Below are positions 26,903 through 51,036 of a DNA stretch of 64,000 nucleotides, piece by piece; positions within the stretch are counted from its first letter, which is position 1; every line of letters starts with the position of its first letter. Below the pieces are notes generated by a model. It saw only the letters and a program-made list of their open reading frames with translations, had not been told where the DNA came from and did not search any database. Position numbers and translations under genes: made by a program. Origin of the DNA: an uncultured Verrucomicrobiae bacterium (lineage in GTDB: Bacteria; Verrucomicrobiota; Verrucomicrobiia; Limisphaerales; DASXHY01); contig OY969416.1 in NCBI GenBank assembly GCA_963699145.1, positions 453,293-517,292 of the forward strand. Direction: 5' to 3'.

Positions 26903-26931
26903 TTGTCACAGAATCGCCATAGGTTTGTTTC
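26903..26931 (+). promoter_or_regulatory. Pho-box-like half-sites upstream of the large secreted protein
   Basis: TTGTCAC-agaa-TCGCCAT-aggt-TTGTTTC, 11-bp period. Confidence 0.5.
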
Positions 26932-26972
26932 CTGCCTCAGTTCTTCTAGGCGCTTGCTGTCACCTTTTTAAC

Positions 26973-29900
26973 ATGAAAACAATTATATTCGCGCTCAGCG
27001 TCGCTGCGCTGATGACTCTCGGAGTACATGCCGACACAACCATTACCGCATGGACTTTTGACAATGTTTCCCCAGGTCTTAATGCCAGCCCGCAGGCTTC
27101 CACGGGCTTGGGGACGGCCAGTGCCTTGGGCATGGGCAATTCGTTCAACAATACCAATAGCGTCAGTAATCCGGACGTGCAGTCTTTGGCTGGCAGTTCC
27201 ACCGATCCCGTAGGCCCGAATGCCTGGCGCATTCGCGGCTTTGGCGCGGCTCCGAACGGCGGCAACGGTTGGTCGACCAACGCCCCCATCGGCACGCAAG
27301 GCGCCAGGTTCGCCGCCAGCACGGCCGGTTTTTACAAAATCAAAGTTGCCTTTGATGTGAATGCGACGCCCGACGCCGAGGCCAATCTTTTGATTCAATA
27401 CACCACCGAAGGCAGCATCTGGTTCAATGCGTCCACCATTTCGGTGGGCACATTGGGAGTTGTAGCCACGAACTCGCTGACCAACAGCACGGTCATGGGC
27501 ACCTACGTGATCCTGACCAACAACGGCGCCACGGGTTGGAACAATCATATCGTGGCCGACCTGAGCGGCATCTCGGGCGTGGATAACAATCCGAATTTCG
27601 CCGTGCGCATCGTGAACGCTTCCACCGGCACCAATTGCGTGGACACGACGGGCGCGCCATTCACCGGCGTTTCGGGAAATTGGAGCTTCGATAACGTGAC
27701 GATTTCGGGTGTCTCCTTCGACACCGTCGCGGGCTGGACATTCGAAAGCGAAGGCACCACGGCCTTTGCTCCGCATCCAGTGCCGGAATTTGGTTCGGGC
27801 ACGGCGACGTCGATTGGTTTCGACACGAGCTATCATTTTGCGGATGGCTCAATCGGCAGCACTAACAAACCTGATATTCTCGCCAACGGTGTGCCGTTTA
27901 GCTCGTCAGGCGCTTCCGGCCAGTTCGTCTGGCGCGTGCGCGGCCAGGGTCCGGGCAACGGCTGGGACACCCAGGCCCCCATTGGCACCCAGGGTGGGCA
28001 GTTCGACGTGCCGACGGCCAATTACAACGACATCATGGTTTCGTTCGACCTCTTCTTCACTTCGCAGGGCGAGGCGAAAATGTGCGTTCTTTACACGACC
28101 GACGGCTGGGCCACGACGAATGTAGCGAACAACTTGTTCTACGCGTCCAACCCCACGTTCATTTTAACGAACTCGGTCTCGAGCGTGCTCTATAGTCCGG
28201 ACACCGTCAACGGAACCTATTTCTATCAGACCGTTGGCCAGAATTTTTACAACAATCTGGTCGTTGATTTCACTGGCGTGCCCAACGTGGCGAACAATCC
28301 GCTGTTCGGCTTCCGCATCGTGAACGCCGCGCAGAACGGCGATTGCGTCGCTTTCAACGGCGGCACCTACAACAACTCCTCAGGCAATTGCCGATTCGAC
28401 AACGTCATCGTCAGCGGCACCTTTGTCGGTTCGACGGCCCCCGCGATCACTGCCGATCCGAACGCCACGGTGGATGCCCCGTTCACCAATACGTTTACGG
28501 ATAATCCCGCCTGGCGCGCGGCTATTACAGCGATCTACGTCAATGGCACGCAGCTGACGAATTCCGCTTATAGTCTCACGACTCCGGGACAGATTGTTTA
28601 TACGCCTTCGGCTTCTGCTCTCCTCAAAACCAGCGGCACCAAGAGCATCGTGATCTTTGCGACGGGCTTCAGCAACGGCAAGGTCTCGCAGCCGCTTTCG
28701 GCGGGCGTGGCGACAAAACTTTCGCTCCTCACCCAGCCGTCGGCGCCTTCGGCCAGCGGCGGCACACTGGTCGTTAATCCCGCCTTGTCCATTACCGACC
28801 AATACGGCAACGGCACCGCTGCCGCGCCGAATACCAACGTCACGGTCATCGCAACGGTCGGCGGCACCGGCGCATGGAAGCTGGGCGGTTCCACAAACCA
28901 GGTGGCGACGAATGGTTTCATGTTCTTTACGAACCTGACCGCAACGGTAAATGGAACTACGAATGTCGCCGGCGCGTTCATCACGTTTACCGTGAATGGA
29001 TTTGGCGGTGCGGGACAGATTACCACCACGAATTCCTCGACGTTCACCATCGGCGCGCCGCCGGCGAATTTCACGCGCGGCAATCTCGCCGTCATCCAGA
29101 TCGACAGCATTTCGAACAACACCACCTTCAGCGTCATCGAAATCAAACCGTCAGGTAACAAACAGACGGCGCCCGTGAACATCATTCCGATCAGCGCCAC
29201 GGGCACCAATGCTCTGCGCATGACCACCGCCGGAAGCGCGGGCCGGTTGTCGCTCAGCGATGACGGCACGTTGATTTCGTTCGTCGGTTTTGCGGATGAA
29301 AGCTCGGTGTCGCCTGACGAAACCTTCATCCAGGATCGCGCCGTGGGAACGCTCAATTATACCAACGGGTTCACTGCGCCGATTAAATACTCCTCCATTT
29401 CGTTTGGCGGCAGCCAGGGCCGCTCCTGCACCACGGCAGACGACGTCAACTGGATCGTCGTCGACAAAGGCGGCCTCTACATCGACAACTCCCTGTGGAG
29501 CGCCCAGAACAACGTGGTCGCCCGCACCTTCGGTGGAACTCACTATGTCGAAACACAGAAGACTGCCGCGGGTTCGCCCATCCCGGTGGTTTACGCGCTG
29601 GCGATGAGCAACCCGGCTAACATCGATCATGCGGTTCCCAACAACCTGCTGACGGATCCGATCGCGGTCGATTTCTACCTGGTCTCGACCAACGGCGGCA
29701 GCAGCTACGACGTGCTGTATATCCTCGACCAGATCGGTTCGGCGCAGGGCGTGATCCATAAGTTTTCATGGGTCCCGGATAGCAGCCAGATCCTGGGCTT
29801 CGGCTGGGCGGACAATGGCTCCGTCACGAACAACAACGGCGCGGACAGCCTCTTTGCCACGACCAATGGCAACGGCGGCGTTTACCTGTATTACACGACG

Positions 29901-30908
29901 GGCGGCGGCGGCACGGCGGGCAACAGCGTCGTTCGCCTCACCGATTCCGGCACGTTCAACGCGCCGATCAACATCATCTCGAGCAATGTGATCTATACGG
30001 CATCGTCAGTGACCTCGATCAAGGGGCTCACGTTCGTTCCGCAGCAAACAGCTCACGGGGCTGAACTCATCCCGCCGCCGGTGCTGGTGCCGCAGAACAA
30101 CGCTTCCGTCAGCAGCACGTTCACCGTCACGAACAGCCCGGATGACCCAGCCTGGCGCACGAACATCACCAGCGTTACGGTCAACGGCACGGTGTTGCCT
30201 CCGTCCGCCTACGACCTGACGCAAGCCGGCCAGATCGTGTTTAACCCGGCTCAATCAGCGCTGCTGCAAACTTCGGGCACCAAGACGATCGTGTTGAGCG
30301 CGCCCAATTACAGCACCAACTCGGTCGCGCAACCGCTCGTAGCGGGCGCGGCCACGCAATTGGTGATCACCAAACAACCCACCGCGCCCGCTGGTGACGG
30401 CGGTGCTCTCGCCCAGCAACCGGTGGTTGTGGTGAAGGATCAACTCGGCAATACGGTGACCAACAACGTCACGATCACTGCGGCCGCAGTCCTGCCAGCT
30501 CCGGTGAATTGGACACTGGGAGGCACCAAGACGCTCACCACGAGCGGTGGCACGGCGACGTTCACCAACTTGACCGCGTTCAGCACGAACTCAGTCACGG
30601 GCGCGGCGATCTCGTTCACGTCCAGCAGCATGTCAATCACCAGTTCGCCGGCGTTTAACATCCCGGTGCCGATCCAATCGACGTTGACTGGAGCGGCGGA
30701 AGTCGCGGCTGGCAAATTCGCGTTCAACTTCACCAACGCCACCGGATTGAGTTTCTCGATCCTCGCGACCAATGACATTACGGCGCCCATCGCGACGTGG
30801 CCGGTGATTGGAACGGCAGTCGAGAGCCCGGCAGGTTCAGGCCACTATTCGTACACGAATTCGGCCGCGACCAATGGCCTGCAGTATTTCATCCTGCGCC
30901 AGCCATAA
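26973..30908 (+). CDS. Large secreted beta-rich protein: duplicated N-terminal domain, two DUF1533-like/Ig-like modules, probable C-terminal sorting-type domain
   Basis: Signal peptide MKTIIFALS..VHA; repeats WTF..GNGW.T.APIGTQG..F; repeats D.PAWR..IT...VNGT.L....Y.LT..GQIV; Asn/Thr/Gly rich. Confidence 0.85.
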   Translation: MKTIIFALSVAALMTLGVHADTTITAWTFDNVSPGLNASPQASTGLGTASALGMGNSFNNTNSVSNPDVQSLAGSSTDPVGPNAWRIRGFGAAPNGGNGWSTNAPIGTQGARFAASTAGFYKIKVAFDVNATPDAEANLLIQYTTEGSIWFNASTISVGTLGVVATNSLTNSTVMGTYVILTNNGATGWNNHIVADLSGISGVDNNPNFAVRIVNASTGTNCVDTTGAPFTGVSGNWSFDNVTISGVSFDTVAGWTFESEGTTAFAPHPVPEFGSGTATSIGFDTSYHFADGSIGSTNKPDILANGVPFSSSGASGQFVWRVRGQGPGNGWDTQAPIGTQGGQFDVPTANYNDIMVSFDLFFTSQGEAKMCVLYTTDGWATTNVANNLFYASNPTFILTNSVSSVLYSPDTVNGTYFYQTVGQNFYNNLVVDFTGVPNVANNPLFGFRIVNAAQNGDCVAFNGGTYNNSSGNCRFDNVIVSGTFVGSTAPAITADPNATVDAPFTNTFTDNPAWRAAITAIYVNGTQLTNSAYSLTTPGQIVYTPSASALLKTSGTKSIVIFATGFSNGKVSQPLSAGVATKLSLLTQPSAPSASGGTLVVNPALSITDQYGNGTAAAPNTNVTVIATVGGTGAWKLGGSTNQVATNGFMFFTNLTATVNGTTNVAGAFITFTVNGFGGAGQITTTNSSTFTIGAPPANFTRGNLAVIQIDSISNNTTFSVIEIKPSGNKQTAPVNIIPISATGTNALRMTTAGSAGRLSLSDDGTLISFVGFADESSVSPDETFIQDRAVGTLNYTNGFTAPIKYSSISFGGSQGRSCTTADDVNWIVVDKGGLYIDNSLWSAQNNVVARTFGGTHYVETQKTAAGSPIPVVYALAMSNPANIDHAVPNNLLTDPIAVDFYLVSTNGGSSYDVLYILDQIGSAQGVIHKFSWVPDSSQILGFGWADNGSVTNNNGADSLFATTNGNGGVYLYYTTGGGGTAGNSVVRLTDSGTFNAPINIISSNVIYTASSVTSIKGLTFVPQQTAHGAELIPPPVLVPQNNASVSSTFTVTNSPDDPAWRTNITSVTVNGTVLPPSAYDLTQAGQIVFNPAQSALLQTSGTKTIVLSAPNYSTNSVAQPLVAGAATQLVITKQPTAPAGDGGALAQQPVVVVKDQLGNTVTNNVTITAAAVLPAPVNWTLGGTKTLTTSGGTATFTNLTAFSTNSVTGAAISFTSSSMSITSSPAFNIPVPIQSTLTGAAEVAAGKFAFNFTNATGLSFSILATNDITAPIATWPVIGTAVESPAGSGHYSYTNSAATNGLQYFILRQP

Positions 30909-30931
30909 TTCAGAATCATCAACATTACGCG

Positions 30932-30967
30932 ACGGGCGGGGAATTTTTCCCCGCCCGTTTTATTTTC
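30932..30967 (+). terminator. Intrinsic terminator
   Basis: acgggcggggaa-ttt-ttccccgcccgt followed by tttatttt. Confidence 0.85.
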
Positions 30968-31007
30968 GACACCTCGCTGGTTCGCGCTTAGATTGCGCCG
31001 ACAGGCG

Positions 31008-33335
31008 ATGTCTGCCACCAGTCTGACAACTGAACTCTCCGTTTCGGGAATGACGTGCGGCAATTGCGCGCGCCACGTCACCGAGGCCATCCAGAGCGTG
31101 CCCGGCGTTCACAGCGCGACGGTCAGCCTGGATTCTCACAGCGCTGCCGTGCGATGGTCGGCGGGCAGTTCGCGCAATCCCACAGCGGTGGTCGCTGCCA
31201 TCGAAAAAGAAGGCTACCGCGCCAAGGTGATTGAGGCTCACGAACCCGATGCCGCACAGCACGCGCTGGCGGGCTGGCACTTTAACCTCGTCATCGCTGT
31301 GCTCGGCACTGCGCCGCTGATGATTGGCGAATGGGTTTTTCAACAGGGCATGAGGCCGTGGTTCCAGTGGTTTTCCTTCGTGCTAGCCACCATCGTGCAG
31401 ATTTTTGCCGGCGCGCAATTTTATCGCGGCGCGTGGAACCAATTAAAAGTCCGCAGCTCGAACATGGACACGCTGGTGGCGCTGGGCTCGACCACCGCTT
31501 ACGCGTTCAGCGTCTGGGCGTTGTTCAGCGGCTTCAAGACGCACCTCTATTTCATGGAAGCCGCGTCGATCATTACGCTGATCAGCGTGGGGCATTGGAT
31601 TGAATCGCGCGTGACCGTGCGTGCCTCTGATGCGCTGAAAAAATTGCTGAACCTTGCGCCGCCAACCGCGCGGCGCGTGGGTGGCAGTGGCACGGGCGTC
31701 TCGCCCGTGAGTTCCGATTCGCACGGGCAGGATGCCCGTGCCACTAATGGCGTCGAAGAACAAGTTCCCGTGGCAGATTTGAAAATCGGCGATCTCATCG
31801 TGCTCCGCCCCGGCGACGCCGTTCCCACGGACGGCAAAGTTATCGAAGGCGCTTCCGCGGTCGATGAAGCCATGCTGACCGGCGAATCCGCGCCGATTGA
31901 TAAAACCACGGGCAGCGATTTGTTTGCCGGCACCGTCAATCTCAACGGCCGGCTCGTCATGCGCGTGACCGCCATGGGCGATGAAACCGCGCTCGCGCAC
32001 ATCATTGCCTCCGTGCAACGCGCCCAGACCAGCCGCGCAAACATCCAGCGGCTCGGAGATCGCGTCAGCAGCGTGTTCGTCCCGATCGTGGCGTGCATCG
32101 CGTTGGCGGCGGGATTGTGGTGGGGACTGAATCCCGCATCCGCCAATCACGCGCATCAGTGGCTTGCGAAATTCCTCTGGCACGCGCACCCGCCGGATCC
32201 AACGGCGGCGGGGTTCATCATCGCGGCGGCGGTTTTGATTATCGCTTGCCCGTGCGCGATGGGTCTTGCCACGCCGGCAGCCATCATGGCCGGGTCGAAT
32301 GCCGCGGCGCGGCGCGGGATTTTGATTCGCGATGGTGTGGCGCTCGAAAAGGCGGGACAAATCACCGCGGTGATTTTTGACAAGACCGGCACGCTGACTT
32401 TTGGCAAGCCGGAGGTTGCGGCCATCGCCGCGCCGAATACTGCCGGTGGCTGGGAGACTGTGCCGCCATCCGGCGCGCCAGTCGCGCTTGCGGCTGCGCT
32501 CGCGCGTCATTCCACTCATCCCATCAGCCAGGCCATTGCAAAATTGTCCGGCGAAAAAATTGAGGTGAATGAGTGGAAAGAACTTCGCGGGGCGGGAGTG
32601 GAAGGAAACATCGAACGCCGAACGCTGAACGCCGAACGCCGAAGTGAAAAATTGCGGCTCGGATCGTTGCGATGGTTGCGCGAGACGGGATTAAGCGTTT
32701 CCGTTGCGGAAAATTTCATCAAGGAATGGTCGGAGCAAGGCGCGACTATTGTCGGCCTGGCGAATGACACGAGTTGGCTCGCCCTGTTTGCCGTAAAAGA
32801 CACCGTCAAGCCCGGCTCGGCGAAAGTCGTCGAACAGCTTTCGCGGCAGGGTTTCAAAACCTATCTGGTTACCGGCGATAACGCGTTGACGGCGGCAGGC
32901 ATCGCGCGGCAAACCGGCATTTTAGCCGAAAATGTTTTTGCGGAAATCCGACCGGAACACAAAGCGGAGTTCGTCAAAAAACTGCAGGCGCAAGGTGAGC
33001 GCGTGGCGTTTGTAGGCGACGGTATCAATGACGCACCCGCGCTGGAGCAGGCGGACCTCGGAATCGCCGTGAGCCGCGCGAGTGATGTCGCGCGCGAGGC
33101 GGCGGACATTATTTTGCTGAAATCGGATATCGAAGCGGTGCCGGAAGCGCTCGGGCTCGCGCGGGCGACGTTGCGGACCATCAAACAGAATTTGTTTTGG
33201 GCCTTCTTCTACAATTGCATCGGGATTCCACTCGCGGCGTTGGGGTTCATGAGCCCGATTTTGTGCGCGGCTGCGATGGGATTCTCGGACCTGATCGTGA
33301 TCGGAAACGCGCTGCGGTTGCGGGGAAGAAAGTAG
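31008..33335 (+). CDS. copA: Cu(I)-type P1B heavy-metal ATPase carrying in-frame repeat-derived insertions
   Basis: GMTCGNC, NMDTLVALG, TGES, ACPCAMGLATP, DKTGT, GDGINDAPAL, FFYN. Confidence 0.92.
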   Translation: MSATSLTTELSVSGMTCGNCARHVTEAIQSVPGVHSATVSLDSHSAAVRWSAGSSRNPTAVVAAIEKEGYRAKVIEAHEPDAAQHALAGWHFNLVIAVLGTAPLMIGEWVFQQGMRPWFQWFSFVLATIVQIFAGAQFYRGAWNQLKVRSSNMDTLVALGSTTAYAFSVWALFSGFKTHLYFMEAASIITLISVGHWIESRVTVRASDALKKLLNLAPPTARRVGGSGTGVSPVSSDSHGQDARATNGVEEQVPVADLKIGDLIVLRPGDAVPTDGKVIEGASAVDEAMLTGESAPIDKTTGSDLFAGTVNLNGRLVMRVTAMGDETALAHIIASVQRAQTSRANIQRLGDRVSSVFVPIVACIALAAGLWWGLNPASANHAHQWLAKFLWHAHPPDPTAAGFIIAAAVLIIACPCAMGLATPAAIMAGSNAAARRGILIRDGVALEKAGQITAVIFDKTGTLTFGKPEVAAIAAPNTAGGWETVPPSGAPVALAAALARHSTHPISQAIAKLSGEKIEVNEWKELRGAGVEGNIERRTLNAERRSEKLRLGSLRWLRETGLSVSVAENFIKEWSEQGATIVGLANDTSWLALFAVKDTVKPGSAKVVEQLSRQGFKTYLVTGDNALTAAGIARQTGILAENVFAEIRPEHKAEFVKKLQAQGERVAFVGDGINDAPALEQADLGIAVSRASDVAREAADIILLKSDIEAVPEALGLARATLRTIKQNLFWAFFYNCIGIPLAALGFMSPILCAAAMGFSDLIVIGNALRLRGRK
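31686..31745. repeat. 60-bp REP-like palindrome inserted in frame in copA
   Basis: Terminal IR agtggcacgggc/gcccgtgccact; right arm matches intergenic 47816-47839 at 23/24 nt. Confidence 0.88.
32607..32643. repeat. Heptamer tandem array inside copA
   Basis: aacatcg aacgccg aacgctg aacgccg aacgccg aa. Confidence 0.8.
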
Positions 33336-33362
33336 GAGACGACGCCTGCCTCGCCGTAGTTC

Positions 33363-33543
33363 TAGAGCGTTGACAGAAATGATGTAGCGGTGTGCAGCGA
33401 GGATTTTTGATTTTTGGCAAGGCTTCGGCGAAGGAGCAGGTTTGATAAACCCTGTGACTGAGCCGAAACGAAGCCAAAAATCAAAAAGACCGCTGTTCAC
33501 ACCACCAACAACACACCGCTACAGCATTTATGGAAACGCTCTA
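33363..33543. mobile_element. ~180-bp MITE/REPIN-like long hairpin
   Basis: Terminal IR tagagcgtt/aacgctcta; inner IRs tgtagcggtgtg/cacaccgctaca and tttttgatttttggc/gccaaaaatcaaaaa. Confidence 0.7.
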
Positions 33544-33889
33544 ACGAAGGCGGGTGAGGAGTCTCTGAAACTCAAAACATCGTCAGAACAACTCTCTGGA
33601 TCAATCGCGAAATACCCCGGCTTGTGCGGCAGTCTCGCCTCGTTCAGCAAGCACGCGCATGATCCACTTAACGACCTGGTCCAGGTATTGGGGATTCTCC
33701 AGATCAACGTGATCATTTAACAAAACCTCCAATGTGTCCTCTCCAACCTTCGACACTTCAGCAACCATGTCCTCATGCTCCTCCAAACACGATTGCACGA
33801 GAGACGCTTCACGTAACCCGGACAATTGCAGCCTGGTCTTGCGCGTAGGATGGAGTGGTCCGCTCACATGATTTCGCGGAACGGTGGCT

Positions 33890-46778: not shown

Positions 46779-47720
46779 ATGCCCTGGACCCGCAAACATC
46801 TGCTCGACATCGAATCGCTCACGGCGGAGGAAATCTCGACCGTGCTCGACACCGCGCGCGCGTTCAAGGCCGTCGGCGAGCGCGCCATCAAAAAAGTTCC
46901 CGCGCTGCGCGGCAAAACCGTGGTGAACCTCTTCGTCGAGCCTTCCACCCGCACGCGCATCAGTTTCGAATTGGCCGAACAACGGCTCTCGGCGGATGTG
47001 ATTAATTTTTCCACGGAAGCGTCTTCGTTCAAGAAAGGCGAAACGCTCAAGGACACCGCGCTGAACCTGCAGGCGTTGAACGCGGATTTCATCGTCATTC
47101 GCCACAGCGCCTCCGGCGCGTCCCATTTTCTTTCGCGCGTGCTCGACGCGAGCGTCATCAATGCCGGCGACGGCGCGCACGAGCATCCCACGCAGGCGTT
47201 ACTGGACGCGTTCACCATCCGCGAGCGGAAGGGAAAGATTGAAGGGCTGAACGTCACGATTCTCGGCGATATTCTTTACAGCCGCGTGGCGCGCTCGAAT
47301 ATTTGGGCGCTGACCAAACTCGGCGCGAAGGTCACGCTCTGCGGGCCATCCACCCTGGTGCCGCGCGTGTTCGAGCAGATGGGTTGCCGCGTCACCTACA
47401 ACGTGGAAGAGGCGATTCGCGATGCGGATATCATCAATCTCCTGCGCATCCAGCACGAGCGCCAGCGCAAGACGATGTTCCCGAGCATCAACGAATACAC
47501 CACGCTCTTCGGCCTCAACAAGGCGCGCCTCGAGAAAACCAAACCCGACGCGCTTATCATGCATCCGGGTCCCATCAATCGCGGCGTGGAGATCGACAGC
47601 GAAATCGCGGACGGCGATCGCTCCTTGATTCTGGACCAGGTCACCAACGGCCTCGCGGTCCGCATGGCCGTGTTATTCCTCGTCAATGGCGGCAAAGGCC
47701 CGCAGGAAATCGCCGCGTAG
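46779..47720 (+). CDS. pyrB: Aspartate carbamoyltransferase catalytic subunit
   Basis: [38 protein letters not shown]. Confidence 0.97.
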
Positions 47721-47737
47721 CCCACGCTAATTTAATT

Positions 47738-47839
47738 AACCGCAAAGAACGCAGAGAACACAAAGAAAATTCCTCTTTGCGATCTCTGCGTTCTTTGCGG
47801 TGAAAAAGTTCATCACACGGGCAAGATGCCCGTGCCACT
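47738..47839. repeat. Palindromic 9-bp-period element (47738-47801) plus REP arm (47816-47839) between convergent genes
   Basis: First part is an inverted near-copy of 3303-3369; second part cacgggcaagatgcccgtgccact matches the copA insertion. Confidence 0.88.
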
Positions 47840-47841
47840 AT

Positions 47842-50800
47842 TCACTTCTCCGGCACATCAATCACATCCCCATCGCGCAGCCAGAGATCGGCCTGAGTGG
47901 GATTCGTGCAATCAATGGTCCACTCCATTTTCTTTTTTGTTTCCGGATCGATGCGCGTGACTTTCACGCGGGACAAATCGGAGGAGACGCGGACCAATTT
48001 TGAATTATCCAGCACCGAGCGAAGCATGAAGGAGGCGTGTGCAACTTCAAGCCTATCATTCTCTGCGGGAGTGGAGGTGGATTGTACCGTAAATTCGGGC
48101 TTGAGTTGCAATGTCGTACGAACGCCCTTTACCGTAACGGTCACCTGCCGAGCGAGGCAGTTCGTCAAAGCCGTTACTGTTGGATTCATTAATCCCGGCC
48201 AATGCTGATCCACCGGATGATCCGACTCAGGGATTTCAACGACATCGCCCCATTCCAGCCACATATCCCGCGAACAGTCGCCGCTGTTTAGGATATCCTC
48301 CACATTGACGTCGATGGCCTTTTGCTTGGCTGATGCCTCCGTGCGCCGGTAAATGATGACGTTCTTAAAATCCGGAAAGTGCAAATCTTTGGCCCATTGA
48401 AGCTCTCGAATAGCCCCGTATCTGTCCCATTCACCGGCCACGTTCTGGCTAAGCAGGCCGTACTCGCCGGCAACCAATTCCAGCAGACTGTAACGATTCC
48501 AGCCATGTGAATCTTTGGTGAAGACCATCATCCCTCCCGTCGAAGCCCGCCGCACTTCGATACGATTGCGTTTGGGCAGATTCGCCAGGCCGCCTGCTTG
48601 TATCAGGAGATCAGCGATGTCCTTCTCGTATGCGCGATTGACGCCAATCCCCGCAGAATTCGCAGTCCACAATCCACCTTCGACAACGCCGTTGATTGAA
48701 CCGCTTTTGGCAAGGTCGAGGGGGGTGTAGCCGGCGTTATTTTGAATGTTCGGATTGGCTTTGTACTCGAGCAACACGGCAACTGCCCCGAGTTGGGCGC
48801 TAATCGTCCGGTGATGCAGGGCGGTGTTTCCGTTGGTATCCTGCAAGTCGGGTTTAGCGCCGGCTTCGAGGAGAAACCGGACATAATTTGTCTCGTAGCC
48901 AGTCATGAGAGGGGTCAATTGACCTTGGAAGCGGGCGTTCACATTCGCTTTGTGGCCAACGAGCCAGCGCCCAACTTCGGGATCAGAAGTGCGGGTTAAA
49001 GGAATATATCCATCTTTGTCTTTCGCACTCGCATCCGCGCCCTTGTCCAATAGCAACCGGACGATCCTTTTGTCTCTTCCTGCCGTTAAAACCTTGCTCA
49101 ACGGCGGACTCCCGTCTCGATCCGGGCTATTGGGATCGGCTCCGTGTTCGAGCAACGTCTGGACGGCGTCGACGCGATTATGCTGGATGGCGGTGAATAG
49201 CGGGACCTCATACTGCCAGTCGCGGTTCGGGTTGGCGCCGCTATCGAGCAACAATTTCACGATGTCATCGTTGCCCTTCCAGATCGCAAAAAGAATCGGC
49301 AGCGATCGCTTCCATTGGTTTTGATCAAAAGGGTCCGGGCCCCTGCCTTCACGGTTAGGATCGGCCTTGTGCTGACACAGCACGCGCGTCGCGCTGGTCC
49401 TGTCGTTCGCCACCGCGAGCATCAATGGAGTCGTGTCCTCGCTGTTTGTAGGATCCACGGTGGCACCGGAGTCCAGTAAAAGGTAGGTCATCTCCGCCTT
49501 GCCCGCCCGCGCCGCCTCGTGCAAAGGCGTATTTCCGGAACGATCTTTTGCGTTAATGTCCGCCTTCGAAGCAAGCAACAATTTGGCAGCGTTCGTATTG
49601 TTTTCCCCGGCCGCAATTTCCAGCGCGGTCCAAGTGTTGGCGTTTCGGGCATTCACCTCAGCGCCATGCTGGATCAGCAGCTTGAGGAGTTCGGTCTGGC
49701 CGTTCTCCACCGCCGCAATCACAGGCCCGCCGACAGACGGCGAATTCACATCCGCCTTATTCGCCAGCAACACCTCGGCGACCGCCATGTAACCGTTCTG
49801 AACCGCCTCAATGAGAGGATTGACGCCGCCACGACCGTTCACATCTGCACCGCGCGAGAGCAACAACTCCACCATGGCTTTGTGGCCGTTCTTCGCCGCC
49901 GCTGACAATGCCACATAAAAATGATTGCGGGTGGAGGCATTCACGTCCGCACCATGATCGAGCAGATATTTCGCCACTACCATCTGGCCTTTAGTCGCAG
50001 CAACGATCAACGGCGTGTTGCCGTCGCCATCCGGCGCATTAATCAAATCCGGGCTGTTTTGGATCATGAGCTGTATCCGCCGGATTTCCTGCTGCTCCTC
50101 GTCGGTCGTTACCGGATTCCCGCCTTCCGCCGCGACGCCTTGCGAGGCCTGCAGTTTCTCTTCGAGCAAAGCCAGACTCGCATTTTCCGCATCGATTCTT
50201 TTCTTCAAATCAACGACACGGGCATTGGTCGGGAGAAACATTTTCGAAAGTTCCTGCAGATCCCCTAGGTCGCTGGCGATTTGCTCGCGGGTCCGCTCAA
50301 TTTGCAAGCGTAACAAGGCGTCGCTTAAAGTCGCCGGCCCATTGCCTCCGCCTGACGCCGATTGCTCCGTTTCGAGTGTGAGCGCGCGCGACATTCCGTC
50401 CAGCCGCTCTTTGATTTTATCCTGCAACGCGGCTTGAATGGCTTTTTCTTTTTTGACTTCCGCTTGCTCCTCGCCATGATCGACTCGCAGCCGAATCAGG
50501 TCGAGTTCGCCCTGGTTATACTGATAAATGAGATTGATGAGCGTGGCGTCCGTTAAGACCGTGGGAGCCACCTGCCTGACCTCGCTGAGCGGCATCGCCT
50601 GAAGTTTTTTCACCCATTCCAACTGCCGCACCTGCTCGGACACGATTGGATTCGACGCCGCTACCGCTGCCCCGCCACCCAACCCCGCCAGATTTTGCCG
50701 GCTCAACGTCACCAGCGTGTCCTGGTCGCTGAACTCTTTAATGATGCGTTGATACTCGGCCGATGCCTCGTTGGTCTTGTTGAGTTTGCGATAGCATTCG

Positions 50801-51012
50801 CCCAGGCGGAAAATGGCCGTGGCGGCCAGTTGTCGATCCTTGTCGAACGCGCTCGCGAGCGATTGGTAATTCGCGATGGCCGCCGGTAAATCGCGATTGG
50901 CTTCCTCCTCAAACAATCCTTTCTGCAACAAGCCGGTAAGGTCATTGGTCGCGCCGCGCGCCACAGTGGCGAGCGCGAGCATCATGGCGAGCATTAAAAA
51001 TTTCAATTTCAT
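47842..51012 (-). CDS. Exported protein: TPR-like N-terminus, coiled-coil module, long ankyrin-repeat array, C-terminal SLBB-like domains
   Basis: Signal MKLKFLMLAMMLALATVARG; AIFRLGECYRKL; many TPL..A...G....V..LL..GADVN repeats; WLEWGDVVEIP and LWLRDGDVIDVP. Confidence 0.88.
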   Translation of the reverse strand: MKLKFLMLAMMLALATVARGATNDLTGLLQKGLFEEEANRDLPAAIANYQSLASAFDKDRQLAATAIFRLGECYRKLNKTNEASAEYQRIIKEFSDQDTLVTLSRQNLAGLGGGAAVAASNPIVSEQVRQLEWVKKLQAMPLSEVRQVAPTVLTDATLINLIYQYNQGELDLIRLRVDHGEEQAEVKKEKAIQAALQDKIKERLDGMSRALTLETEQSASGGGNGPATLSDALLRLQIERTREQIASDLGDLQELSKMFLPTNARVVDLKKRIDAENASLALLEEKLQASQGVAAEGGNPVTTDEEQQEIRRIQLMIQNSPDLINAPDGDGNTPLIVAATKGQMVVAKYLLDHGADVNASTRNHFYVALSAAAKNGHKAMVELLLSRGADVNGRGGVNPLIEAVQNGYMAVAEVLLANKADVNSPSVGGPVIAAVENGQTELLKLLIQHGAEVNARNANTWTALEIAAGENNTNAAKLLLASKADINAKDRSGNTPLHEAARAGKAEMTYLLLDSGATVDPTNSEDTTPLMLAVANDRTSATRVLCQHKADPNREGRGPDPFDQNQWKRSLPILFAIWKGNDDIVKLLLDSGANPNRDWQYEVPLFTAIQHNRVDAVQTLLEHGADPNSPDRDGSPPLSKVLTAGRDKRIVRLLLDKGADASAKDKDGYIPLTRTSDPEVGRWLVGHKANVNARFQGQLTPLMTGYETNYVRFLLEAGAKPDLQDTNGNTALHHRTISAQLGAVAVLLEYKANPNIQNNAGYTPLDLAKSGSINGVVEGGLWTANSAGIGVNRAYEKDIADLLIQAGGLANLPKRNRIEVRRASTGGMMVFTKDSHGWNRYSLLELVAGEYGLLSQNVAGEWDRYGAIRELQWAKDLHFPDFKNVIIYRRTEASAKQKAIDVNVEDILNSGDCSRDMWLEWGDVVEIPESDHPVDQHWPGLMNPTVTALTNCLARQVTVTVKGVRTTLQLKPEFTVQSTSTPAENDRLEVAHASFMLRSVLDNSKLVRVSSDLSRVKVTRIDPETKKKMEWTIDCTNPTQADLWLRDGDVIDVPEK

Positions 51013-51036
51013 AAATTTCTCCACCCTTCGCTCCAC

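What the first reader, a model, noticed from the sequence alone, without database searches (positions are those of the whole stretch)
31686..31745. REP-like palindrome inserted in frame into copA adds 20 residues
An exact 60-bp palindromic element starts on a codon boundary and encodes SGTGVSPVSSDSHGQDARAT between ARRVGG and NGVEEQVPV, a short actuator-domain loop in typical CopA. Its right arm is 23/24 identical to a free intergenic copy at 47816-47839. This is direct in-window evidence of an extragenic repeat colonising a coding sequence without breaking it, as Rickettsia palindromic elements do.
Basis: partly seen in the sequence, partly recalled or inferred. Interest (0 to 1): 0.75.

Follow-up and report, generated by a model that had tools for sequence, protein, structure and literature searches.

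The report
REP palindrome pair translated inside copA
A 60-base pair of small mobile DNA hairpins, from a repeat family scattered through this soil bacterium's genome, sits in frame inside its copper-pump gene and adds a 20-residue loop; this is real, but the same behaviour of the same repeat family was catalogued in this phylum in 2013.

Summary
Window 31686-31745 is a 60-bp inverted doublet of a hairpin unit, with 24-nt arms that are 21/24 complementary (not exact) and a 12-nt spacer. It lies in frame in a complete copA and encodes SGTGVSPVSSDSHGQDARAT.

The unit (TAGTGG + CACGGGC-N5-GCCCGTG) is a GTGG-headed REP. The 5.9-Mb genome holds 260 hairpin cores. 204 of them have a good head and form 157 elements. 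All 47 doublets are head-out, as in REPINs.

Solved CopA structures and seven relatives lack the 20 residues. The insert falls in the first beta-hairpin turn of the actuator domain.

It is not a one-off. At least eight other genes in this genome carry in-frame copies: trpC, ileS, leuS, dus, prpD, tilS, prmC and a GH3.

Di Nocera et al. 2013 list the same peptides (GTGVPPV…HGRDARAT) for intragenic REP dimers in Opitutus terrae. This scan has also met such cases in other genomes.

One result goes beyond that paper. The same CopA loop carries different REP families in same-genus relatives, and 77% of 120 homologs have an insert there, with at least 12 gains or losses.

No cognate RAYT was found. 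Translation of the insert is inferred, not shown.

The parts
30993..33335 (+). copA, a P1B-type Cu+ ATPase ORF of 780 aa from the TTG start (the database version is 775 aa). It is the host gene of the insert.
   Evidence: ORF. Pfam finds HMA, E1-E2_ATPase and Hydrolase. The GMTCGNC, TGES, CPC, DKTGT, HP and GDGIND motifs are read in the translation. Homologs are named Cu+-exporting ATPase.
31686..31745 (+). REP doublet (REPIN-like), 60 bp, in frame. It encodes SGTGVSPVSSDSHGQDARAT (residues 232-251).
   Evidence: Borders confirmed by loose ends of metagenome contigs. A 21-residue gap against A. fulgidus CopA.
31686..31709 (+). Left REP unit: head AGTGG (family consensus TAGTGG) plus hairpin CACGGGCG-TCT-CGCCCGTG (31691-31709).
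   Evidence: Family consensus.
31710..31721 (+). 12-nt spacer AGTTCCGATTCG. In the family the tail runs CGWWYC.
   Evidence: 12 nt is the commonest spacer among the 47 doublets.
31722..31745 (-). Right REP unit in inverted orientation: hairpin CACGGGCA-GGA-TGCCCGTG followed by CCACT.
47816..47839 (-). Free single REP unit of the same family, 23/24 identical to the right arm. It lies between convergent genes, 2 nt from the stop of the minus-strand ORF 47842..51036.
32598..32663 (+). A second repeat-derived coding stretch in the same copA (VEGNIERRTLNAERRSEKLRLG). Its DNA matches a heptamer-like GAACGCC repeat found elsewhere in the genome. This is variable site 3 of the CopA alignment.
   Evidence: blastn-short gives at least 24 other genome places. 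The 24-mer has 15 copies at up to 2 mismatches. 64% of 120 homologs have an insert of at least 8 aa here.
32424..32495 (+). Variable site 2 in the N-domain loop (IAAPNTAGGWETVPPSGAPVALAA). It looks like a decayed relative of the GTPNSxSARF...EIGAP inserts of orthologs. Its DNA no longer matches any repeat in this genome.

Best explanation
The 60 bp are a doublet of a GTGG-headed REP element, built like a REPIN: two inverted hairpin units, heads outward. It comes from a family of about 200 units in this Verrucomicrobiae genome. A copy landed in copA, in the turn of the first beta-hairpin of the actuator domain. It survived because three things coincide. Its length is a multiple of three. The frame in use avoids the TAG of the head. 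The site is a loop that tolerates extra residues. The element is then simply transcribed and translated as a 20-residue, probably disordered, surface loop of a working copper pump. Shown here: family membership, the insertion relative to relatives and to solved structures, an intact frame and intact catalytic motifs, retention in orthologs of 86-90% identity, and parallel in-frame copies in at least 8 other genes. Inferred: that the peptide is made, that the pump works, and that spread is by a Y1 (RAYT-type) transposase acting in trans.
For: Family:
- 110 exact hairpin cores occur in the genome.
- Allowing 1 mismatch per stem arm gives 260 cores; 163 of them carry the full TAGTGG head, and 204 have a head matching at least 4/6.
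- Those 204 form 157 elements: 110 singles and 47 doublets. All 47 doublets are head-out, with spacers of 10-75 nt.
- The headed pattern occurs 172 times in G000 against 0 for the reversed control.

Insertion:
- A. fulgidus CopA (3J08, 3J09) aligns on both sides with 4 residues where the query has 25.
- copA of L005, L006, L007, L009, L010, L012 and L039 reads RRxDAxGxExEVPV with no insert.

Persistence:
- P0002 (90% identical) has GTGVSPVSSDSRGQNARAT, P0003 (87%) has GMGVLPVRNETHRQDARAT, and P0050 has GTGVSPVRTETPGQDSGAT.
- A soil-metagenome contig bridges the element into copA, covering 31688-31838 with 5 differences.

Not a one-off:
- Pfam-confirmed ORFs carry in-frame copies: trpC, ileS, dus, leuS, prpD, a GH3, tilS and prmC.
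- For trpC, four same-genus genomes lack the insert, G006 shares it, and G005, G008 and G003 show decayed remnants.

Published precedent:
- The O. terrae GTAG-19 dimers GTGVPPVMADQPHGRDARAT (Oter_1564) and GTGVPPVDSGSASDDHGRDARAT (uvrA, Oter_3168) are listed in Additional file 3 of PMC3733652.
Against: No RNA or protein data exist: no RNA run holds the stretch. Translation and activity are therefore inferred.

No cognate RAYT was found. Of 10 Y1_Tnp matches, none is flanked on both sides by this family. One has a single unit 115 bp away but is bounded by an unrelated 20-nt inverted repeat. The others carry inverted repeats of their own or none.

The AlphaFold model is poor (mean pLDDT 63.7; the actuator domain is below 50). 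It says only that the insert lies between strands 225-229 and 255-259 with no predicted structure.

In the homolog tree the nearest clades carry a different insert class, or none, at the same site. It therefore cannot be settled whether this was a clean insertion into an empty loop or a replacement of an older element.
Confidence: 0.87

Rival explanations
1. The insert has been co-opted. The strong hairpin in the mRNA, or the extra loop in the protein, serves copA. It might pause ribosomes about 27 codons after transmembrane helix 2, or tune mRNA stability. That would explain why most Verrucomicrobiae CopA keep some palindromic insert at exactly this loop.
For: 77% of 120 homologs carry at least 8 extra residues at this site. 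Inserts of several different families sit here. The hairpin is very stable. Di Nocera et al. argue that many REPs act as RNA elements (passages seen).
Against: 27 of 118 homologs have essentially no insert, and absence recurs across the tree with at least 12 changes. The sequences are not conserved between classes. In trpC the same family is seen decaying and being deleted, as neutral passengers do. Two other CopA loops are equally variable, which suits tolerance better than one special function.
Confidence: 0.1
2. The insertion inactivated copA, so the gene is a young pseudogene with an open frame.
For: Nothing direct. The insert lies in a catalytic domain, and expression was not observed.
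Against: The 780-codon frame is open and the TGES, CPC, DKTGT, HP and GDGIND motifs are intact. The same insert persists in orthologs that have diverged 10-13% yet keep full-length frames. Within this genome the next best match to CopA is only 33% identical, so there is no obvious replacement.
Confidence: 0.04
3. The 60 nt are removed before the mature protein is made, by RNA excision, translational bypass or protein splicing.
For: A stable hairpin bounded by GGC codons on both sides faintly recalls a bypass site.
Against: There is no stop codon at the would-be take-off site, no intron or intein features, and no Rfam match. Orthologs change residues inside the insert while keeping it in frame, which excised sequence would not need to do. 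By the review passages I saw, Rickettsia elements inserted in ORFs modify the gene product as in-frame translational fusions.
Confidence: 0.02

Closest known systems
GTAG-tagged REPs of Opitutus terrae (family labelled GTAG-19 in Additional file 3 of Di Nocera, De Gregorio & Rocco 2013, BMC Genomics 14:522, PMC3733652)
   Same: Same phylum. The head is degenerated to GTGG; the paper's text says so for an O. terrae family. The stem-loop is a short GC-rich one. Dimers sit in frame in ORFs and encode 20-30 residues. The REP-encoded peptides are the same (GTGV[PS]PV, HG[RQ]DARAT, VARASRP, TGxTPVP), and some are in tRNA- and DNA-handling enzymes.
   Different: A different genome and order. No P-type ATPase appears in that table: searching the four supplementary files for 'copper', 'ATPase' and 'heavy metal' gave 0 hits. 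I read part 1 of 3 of the table itself. I could not see the paper's Figure 1 consensus. The family number differs between its text (GTAG-20) and its table (GTAG-19). Identity of the family therefore rests on the peptides and the architecture.
REPIN-RAYT systems (Bertels & Rainey 2011, PMC3116915; search listing and abstract seen)
   Same: Two inverted REPs separated by a short spacer form one long hairpin. There are hundreds of copies, mostly extragenic. Y1 (HUH) transposase genes are present in the genome.
   Different: No RAYT flanked by this family was found. Singles outnumber doublets by 110 to 47. REPINs are described as extragenic, whereas here 6-8% of elements lie in frame in genes.
Rickettsia palindromic elements (RPE; Ogata et al. 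2000 and 2002, recalled; summarised in PMC10969869 and PMC3733652, passages seen)
   Same: Palindromic repeats inserted in frame into unrelated housekeeping genes, and tolerated as additions to the protein.
   Different: RPEs are about 100-150 bp, unrelated in sequence, and occur in an alphaproteobacterial intracellular parasite. This element is a 60-bp REP dimer in a free-living soil verrucomicrobium. It works alike but is not a member.

Membership tests
GTAG-tagged REP superfamily (Di Nocera 2013) | Terminal GTAG-type tetranucleotide (GTRG variants allowed) next to the stem-loop | tested here: met
   The head is GTGG inside TAGTGG. 163 of 260 cores have all six head bases and 204 have at least 4/6.
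GTAG-tagged REP superfamily (Di Nocera 2013) | Short GC-rich stem (6-9 bp) and small loop, in many dispersed and mainly intergenic copies | tested here: met
   7-9-bp stems with 3-5-nt loops. By my codon-usage classifier, 137 of 157 elements have coding sequence on at most one side.
GTAG-tagged REP superfamily (Di Nocera 2013) | Same family as the published O. terrae intragenic REPs | tested here: met
   The peptide strings match on both arms and the dimer layout is the same. The published DNA consensus (a figure) was not seen.
REPIN-RAYT system | Inverted REP pair able to form one long hairpin | tested here: met
   47 of 47 doublets are head-out. The copA copy folds as one hairpin.
REPIN-RAYT system | A cognate RAYT gene flanked by REPs of the family | tested here: not met
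   10 Y1_Tnp matches, none flanked on both sides. The nearest candidate (312 aa) scores 63 bits against a cut-off of 80 for NF047646. The genome is estimated 90% complete, so a missed gene is possible.
Rickettsia palindromic elements | In-frame insertion in ORFs of unrelated function | tested here: met
   copA plus 8 Pfam-confirmed genes.
Rickettsia palindromic elements | Sequence and size class of the RPE families (about 100-150 bp, Rickettsia) | tested here: not met
   60 bp, a different sequence, and phylum Verrucomicrobiota. The RPE size is taken from passages.
MITE | Terminal inverted repeats with target-site duplication, mobilised as a whole unit of 70-300 bp | tested here: inconclusive
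   The consensus ends TA...TA could be read as a TA duplication. But two thirds of elements are single units with one head only, and the doublet is 60 bp.
P1B-type Cu+ ATPase (CopA), the host gene | HMA CxxC, TGES, CPC, DKTGT, HP and GDGxND motifs, and the domain order | tested here: met
   Translation. Pfam. Alignment to solved CopA structures.

The most novel reading that the evidence does not exclude
The first beta-hairpin turn of the CopA actuator domain, together with two N-domain loops, is a recurrent landing pad for REPs across Verrucomicrobiae. Three same-genus genomes carry three different genome-wide REP families at this one loop. Composite (nested) inserts occur. The site has gained or lost inserts at least 12 times among 117 homologs. 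If this reflects more than tolerance, two readings are open: REPs insert preferentially into earlier REPs or into a DNA structure at this spot, or the mRNA hairpin is useful just after the membrane helices. Either way, REP turnover would be a directed and major source of loop-length evolution in these proteins.
Probability: 0.2. Interest if true: 0.6.

Novelty: new member of a known kind. Interest (0 to 1): 0.35.

Why it matters
This is a clean, datable example of selfish palindromic DNA becoming protein sequence in a free-living bacterium. It also shows the whole life cycle within one genus: fresh insert, shared ortholog, decayed remnant, and replacement by another family. For annotators, it explains odd low-complexity loops and length variation in Verrucomicrobiae proteins. 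It also warns that motifs such as GTGVSPV / HGQDARAT are repeat-derived and are not functional signatures. The hotspot pattern in CopA offers a natural experiment on which loops of a P-type ATPase tolerate insertions.

Tried and rejected
1. DNA of the closest orthologs. My one metagenome scan returned mostly distant CopA genes (about 33-40% identity). Only L037 was close, and it is cut at the insert. The DNA of P0002 and P0003 was therefore not obtained, and compensatory changes in the stems could not be tested.

2. A protein-level palindrome test, scoring how far each insert peptide could be back-translated into a palindrome, against 40 control windows per protein. It has low power: the known palindromic window insert itself scored no better than 19 of 40 controls. 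17 of 78 inserts beat all their controls. I do not lean on it.

3. Expression. No RNA holder is listed. The runs laid were DNA contigs only, and no contig joins across the element.

4. Binding or fold claims. The AlphaFold2 model of the whole protein with 36 sequences was poor (pLDDT 63.7, pTM 0.41). I ran no fold search on it.

5. Rfam at permissive threshold over 30500-33800 gave nothing on the element.

6. A cognate RAYT was not found.

7. Rejected ideas. An assembly artefact is excluded because the junction is seen in an independent metagenome contig and in orthologs. Translational bypass is rejected because there is no stop at the take-off site. The idea that the repeat family arose from the gene is rejected because the family is spread over 37 of 301 sampled genomes of the phylum.

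8. Script mishaps. One search timed out and was rerun with faster settings. My first regex anchors failed and were fixed. The regex found no anchor in L003, L008, L042 and L043, so their state at site 1 was not read.
Full report
**1. What is at the coordinates**

Window 31686-31745 reads AGTGGCACGGGCGTCTCGCCCGTG, then AGTTCCGATTCG, then CACGGGCAGGATGCCCGTGCCACT.
- The two 24-nt arms are 88% complementary (21/24) and lie 12 nt apart. Each arm is itself a perfect small hairpin. The element is a strong palindrome, but not an exact one.
- As RNA, an 80-nt stretch (31676-31755) around it folds at -50.6 kcal/mol, against -32.5 +/- 3.2 for 200 dinucleotide shuffles. None of the shuffles folds as well.
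- It lies in the ORF 30993..33335 (+, 780 aa), starts on a codon boundary, and encodes SGTGVSPVSSDSHGQDARAT between ARRVGG and NGVEEQVPV.
- The ORF is a complete P1B copper ATPase. Pfam finds HMA, E1-E2_ATPase and Hydrolase. The GMTCGNC, TGES, CPC, DKTGT, HP and GDGIND motifs are readable.
- The right arm matches 47816-47839 at 23/24. The 24-mer has 3 matches in the window at up to 3 mismatches, against 0.00 expected.
- That free copy sits between convergent ORFs ending at 47720 and 47842. This is the classic place for a REP.

**2. The repeat family**

The window is G000:C1:453293-517292, in a single 5,922,632-base contig of 56.7% G+C.
- The exact core CACGGGC-N3-7-GCCCGTG occurs 110 times.
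- Allowing one mismatch per stem arm and at least 6/7 pairing gives 260 cores. 163 of them carry the full head TAGTGG on one side, and 204 have a head matching at least 4/6.
- Those 204 form 157 elements: 58 singles on one strand, 52 on the other, and 47 doublets. All 47 doublets are heads-outward, with spacers of 10-75 nt. The commonest spacer is 12 nt, as in copA.
- The headed pattern counts 172 in G000, against 0 for the reversed control.
- A GTGG head, a 7-9-bp GC stem, many dispersed copies and inverted dimers together define a GTAG-type REP and a REPIN-like dimer.
- With a codon-usage classifier trained on 1061 long ORFs (91% frame recovery on 300 test windows), 57 of 157 elements have no coding flank, 80 have one, and 20 have two.
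- Soil and mine metagenome contigs pile onto 31686-31746 alone. In run X3 the depth is 78-144 there, against about 5 on most of the flanks. Their loose ends fall exactly at 31686 and 31746/31747. This marks the borders of the mobile unit independently of my own parsing.

**3. It is an insertion**

- Against A. fulgidus CopA (3J08, 3J09), query residues 1-27 and 53-168 of the stretch align to chain residues 109-135 and 140-255. Four residues in the solved protein thus face 25 in the query. The site is the turn between the first two strands of the actuator domain.
- At DNA level, copA of seven relatives has a short loop of the type RRxDAxGxExEVPV. These are L005, L006, L007, L010 and L012, and L009 and L039.
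- L007 reads RRVSANGEES, which fits the window's RRVGG|NGVEEQ once the insert is removed.
- The insert is not an assembly artefact. P0002 (90% identical) has GTGVSPVSSDSRGQNARAT, P0003 (87%) has GMGVLPVRNETHRQDARAT, and P0050 has GTGVSPVRTETPGQDSGAT.
- A 151-base contig of run X4 covers 31688-31838, running from the element into copA with 5 differences.
- The AlphaFold2 model is poor overall (mean pLDDT 63.7, pTM 0.41). It shows only that residues 231-252 lie between strands 225-229 and 255-259, without predicted structure.

**4. Not a lone event**

I scanned every element for stop-free frames inside long ORFs and checked the flanks for coding potential. I then ran Pfam on 16 candidate stop-to-stop ORFs. 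This confirmed in-frame copies in eight genes:

| Gene | Evidence |
|---|---|
| trpC | IGPS profile spans the insert SGTGVSPVRSPTETHGQDARAT |
| ileS | in-frame copy in a Pfam-confirmed ORF |
| dus | in-frame copy in a Pfam-confirmed ORF |
| leuS | insert in the editing domain |
| prpD/mmgE | in-frame copy in a Pfam-confirmed ORF |
| GH3 glycosidase | a single unit, ASGTGVSPVRT |
| tilS | in-frame copy in a Pfam-confirmed ORF |
| prmC | SSGTGVSPLRTDPHRQDARAT just before FDLIISNPPY |

- Five of the 16 ORFs had no Pfam family. Three further ORFs were not counted: the second leuS piece, and two in which the element lies near the N-terminus.
- With copA that makes at least 9 of 157 elements (about 6%).
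- Bacterial genomes are mostly coding (general knowledge). Such a low share therefore implies strong filtering against genic insertions, or targeting away from genes. This step is inference.

For trpC the genus shows the whole life cycle:
- G006 shares the insert (SGTGILPVRLQKETHGQDARATM).
- G005 and G008 carry decayed versions.
- G003 keeps only QDASSAL.
- G002 has a different palindrome at the same spot.
- G007, G009, G010 and G011 have short native loops.

**5. What is already known**

Di Nocera, De Gregorio and Rocco (BMC Genomics 2013, PMC3733652) sorted REPs into GTAG- and CGTC-tagged superfamilies. I saw passages and Additional file 3, part 1 of 3.
[quoted passage not shown] - Their table lists, for O. 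terrae 'GTAG-19', the peptides GTGVPPV, GTGVSPV, HGRDARAT, HGQDARAT, VARASRP and TGGTPVP.
- It includes the dimers GTGVPPVMADQPHGRDARAT (Oter_1564) and GTGVPPVDSGSASDDHGRDARAT (uvrA, Oter_3168). These are the same strings and the same layout as in copA.
- The text says the GTAG head is mutated to GTGG in an O. terrae family, which it numbers GTAG-20. The table numbering differs, and I could not see the figure with the consensus.
- No copper or P-type ATPase appears. Searches of the four supplementary files for 'copper', 'ATPase' and 'heavy metal' gave 0 hits.
- The Rickettsia precedent is summarised in PMC10969869 (passages). I recall the original Ogata papers but did not read them; PMC186582 is not held.
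- The family is patchy in the phylum. 37 of 301 sampled genomes (31 of 149 genera) have at least one headed unit. Only a few have many: 227, 172 (G000), 31, 22, 20, 18, 16 and 10. Reversed controls give 0-1.
- Within the genus the counts are 172, 141, 8, 1 (a genome that is only 52% complete) and 0.
- This scan has met the phenomenon before in other genomes, including one note of two elements in a P-type ATPase and one in metH of a verrucomicrobium. I saw those notes only after reaching my own reading.

**6. What goes beyond the 2013 catalogue**

In an alignment of the 120 closest CopA homologs, the site is hypervariable.
- Against the shortest reference, 77% of homologs carry at least 8 extra residues there (median 24, maximum 97).
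- Of the 118 homologs with recognisable anchors, the extra length is at most 3 residues in 27, 4-9 in 13, 10-19 in 27, 20-39 in 45, and 40 or more in 6. One of those 6 is a regex artefact.
- The inserts fall into recognisable classes: GTGVxPV...DARAT; SRREEA...LLTSAAT; RRPPAR...GDRRS; FDLR...SEIGNRKSE; and GAPASG...EAGAP. There are also composites.
- This classification is my own rough regex scheme. It leaves 22 inserts as 'other'.

At DNA level three same-genus genomes carry three different families at this loop, and each family is abundant in its own genome:

| Genome | Family at the copA loop | Copies in that genome | Reversed control |
|---|---|---|---|
| G000 | this family | 172 | 0 |
| G006 | GTAGCAGCCGACGTGAGGAGGC dimer | 146, including the two in its copA | 0 |
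| G005 | GGARCGCCGAGCACC..CTCGGC dimer | 52 in half a genome, including the two in its copA | 0 |

- I built a FastTree tree of 117 homologs from 720 well-filled columns, so the loops were left out. P0047 and P0077 were dropped for lack of anchors, and P0050 because it is truncated.
- On that tree, presence or absence of an insert needs at least 12 changes, and at least 8 are forced by well-supported branches. The shuffled mean is 24.6.
- The class labels need 49 changes, where the minimum possible is 7 and the shuffled mean is 72.8.
- Two further CopA loops behave alike. At site 2 in the N-domain, 82% of homologs have at least 8 extra residues, and five homologs carry this same family there (RTGVAPVSN...ETGRMPVPL).
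- At site 3, 64% do. In the window this stretch is encoded by a heptamer-like repeat that recurs in the genome.
- Whether the hotspots reflect tolerance alone or also targeting, for example REPs inserting into earlier REPs, I could not decide. The insertion points in the three genomes differ by one or two codons, which fits tolerance at least as well.

**7. Mechanism and its limits**

- The most likely course is this. A REP dimer copy landed in the loop. The only insertions that persist are those with a length that is a multiple of three, a frame that avoids the head's TAG, and a permissive site. The insert is then translated as a floppy loop and drifts.
- The mobilising enzyme is unknown. Ten Y1_Tnp matches exist, but none is bracketed by this family. 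Each that has flanking inverted repeats has its own.
- The nearest candidate reaches only 63 bits against the 80-bit cut-off of NCBIfam's REP-associated tyrosine transposase model.
- No expression data could be had.

**8. Verdict**

The kind, and very probably the family itself, is already published. The CopA hotspot and the visible turnover are a modest extension of what is known.

Noticed in passing
window 32598-32663: A second repeat-derived coding stretch in the same copA (NIERRTLNAERRSEK). Its DNA is a heptamer-like GAACGCC/GAACGCT run that matches at least 24 other genome places. Orthologs have NIEHRTSNIEHP-type inserts of varying length at the same spot.
   Followed up: partly
window 32424-32495: The N-domain loop APNTAGGWETVPPSGAP looks like a decayed relative of the palindromic GTPNSxSARF...EIGAP inserts of many orthologs. 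Five homologs (P0041, P0045, P0052, P0054, P0059) carry the GTGG-CACGGGC family at this second site instead.
   Followed up: partly
window 47740-47800: A perfect 18-bp-arm hairpin (CCGCAAAGAACGCAGAGA ... TCTCTGCGTTCTTTGCGG) lies just upstream of the free REP copy. Its arm recurs 10 times exactly and 40 times with up to 2 mismatches in the genome, so it is a further repeat family.
   Followed up: partly
G000:C1:2122934-2124319 and 2121316-2123499 (loci L026, L031): leuS is read in two overlapping frames. The frame changes within an A/T-rich run about 230 nt downstream of its in-frame REP insert. This is either an assembly indel or a real frameshift in an essential gene.
   Followed up: partly
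G000:C1:137057-137690 (locus L014): A 156-aa IS200-like Y1 transposase is bracketed by two nested inverted repeats (GCGCCGTAGGCGC... and GCTCCGTAGGAGC). This is a REPtron-like unit of a different family, lying next to the REP-bearing trpC. Other Y1 genes have flanking repeats of their own, one of them GTAG-headed (TGTAGCGGCGGTCTGTGACCGCCGC at 1687918).
   Followed up: partly
G000 genome-wide; G006; G005: The genome holds several coexisting REP families: 172 headed units of the GTGG family, 74 of GTAGCAGCCGACGT.AG.AGGC, and 17 of GGARCGCCGAGCACC..CTCGGC. Copy numbers differ sharply between same-genus genomes; the first family ranges from 0 to 172.
   Followed up: yes
window 26925-30908: A 1327-aa ORF directly upstream of copA is rich in N-x-T/S and in repeated Ig-like segments. 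It is probably a large secreted or surface protein.
   Followed up: no
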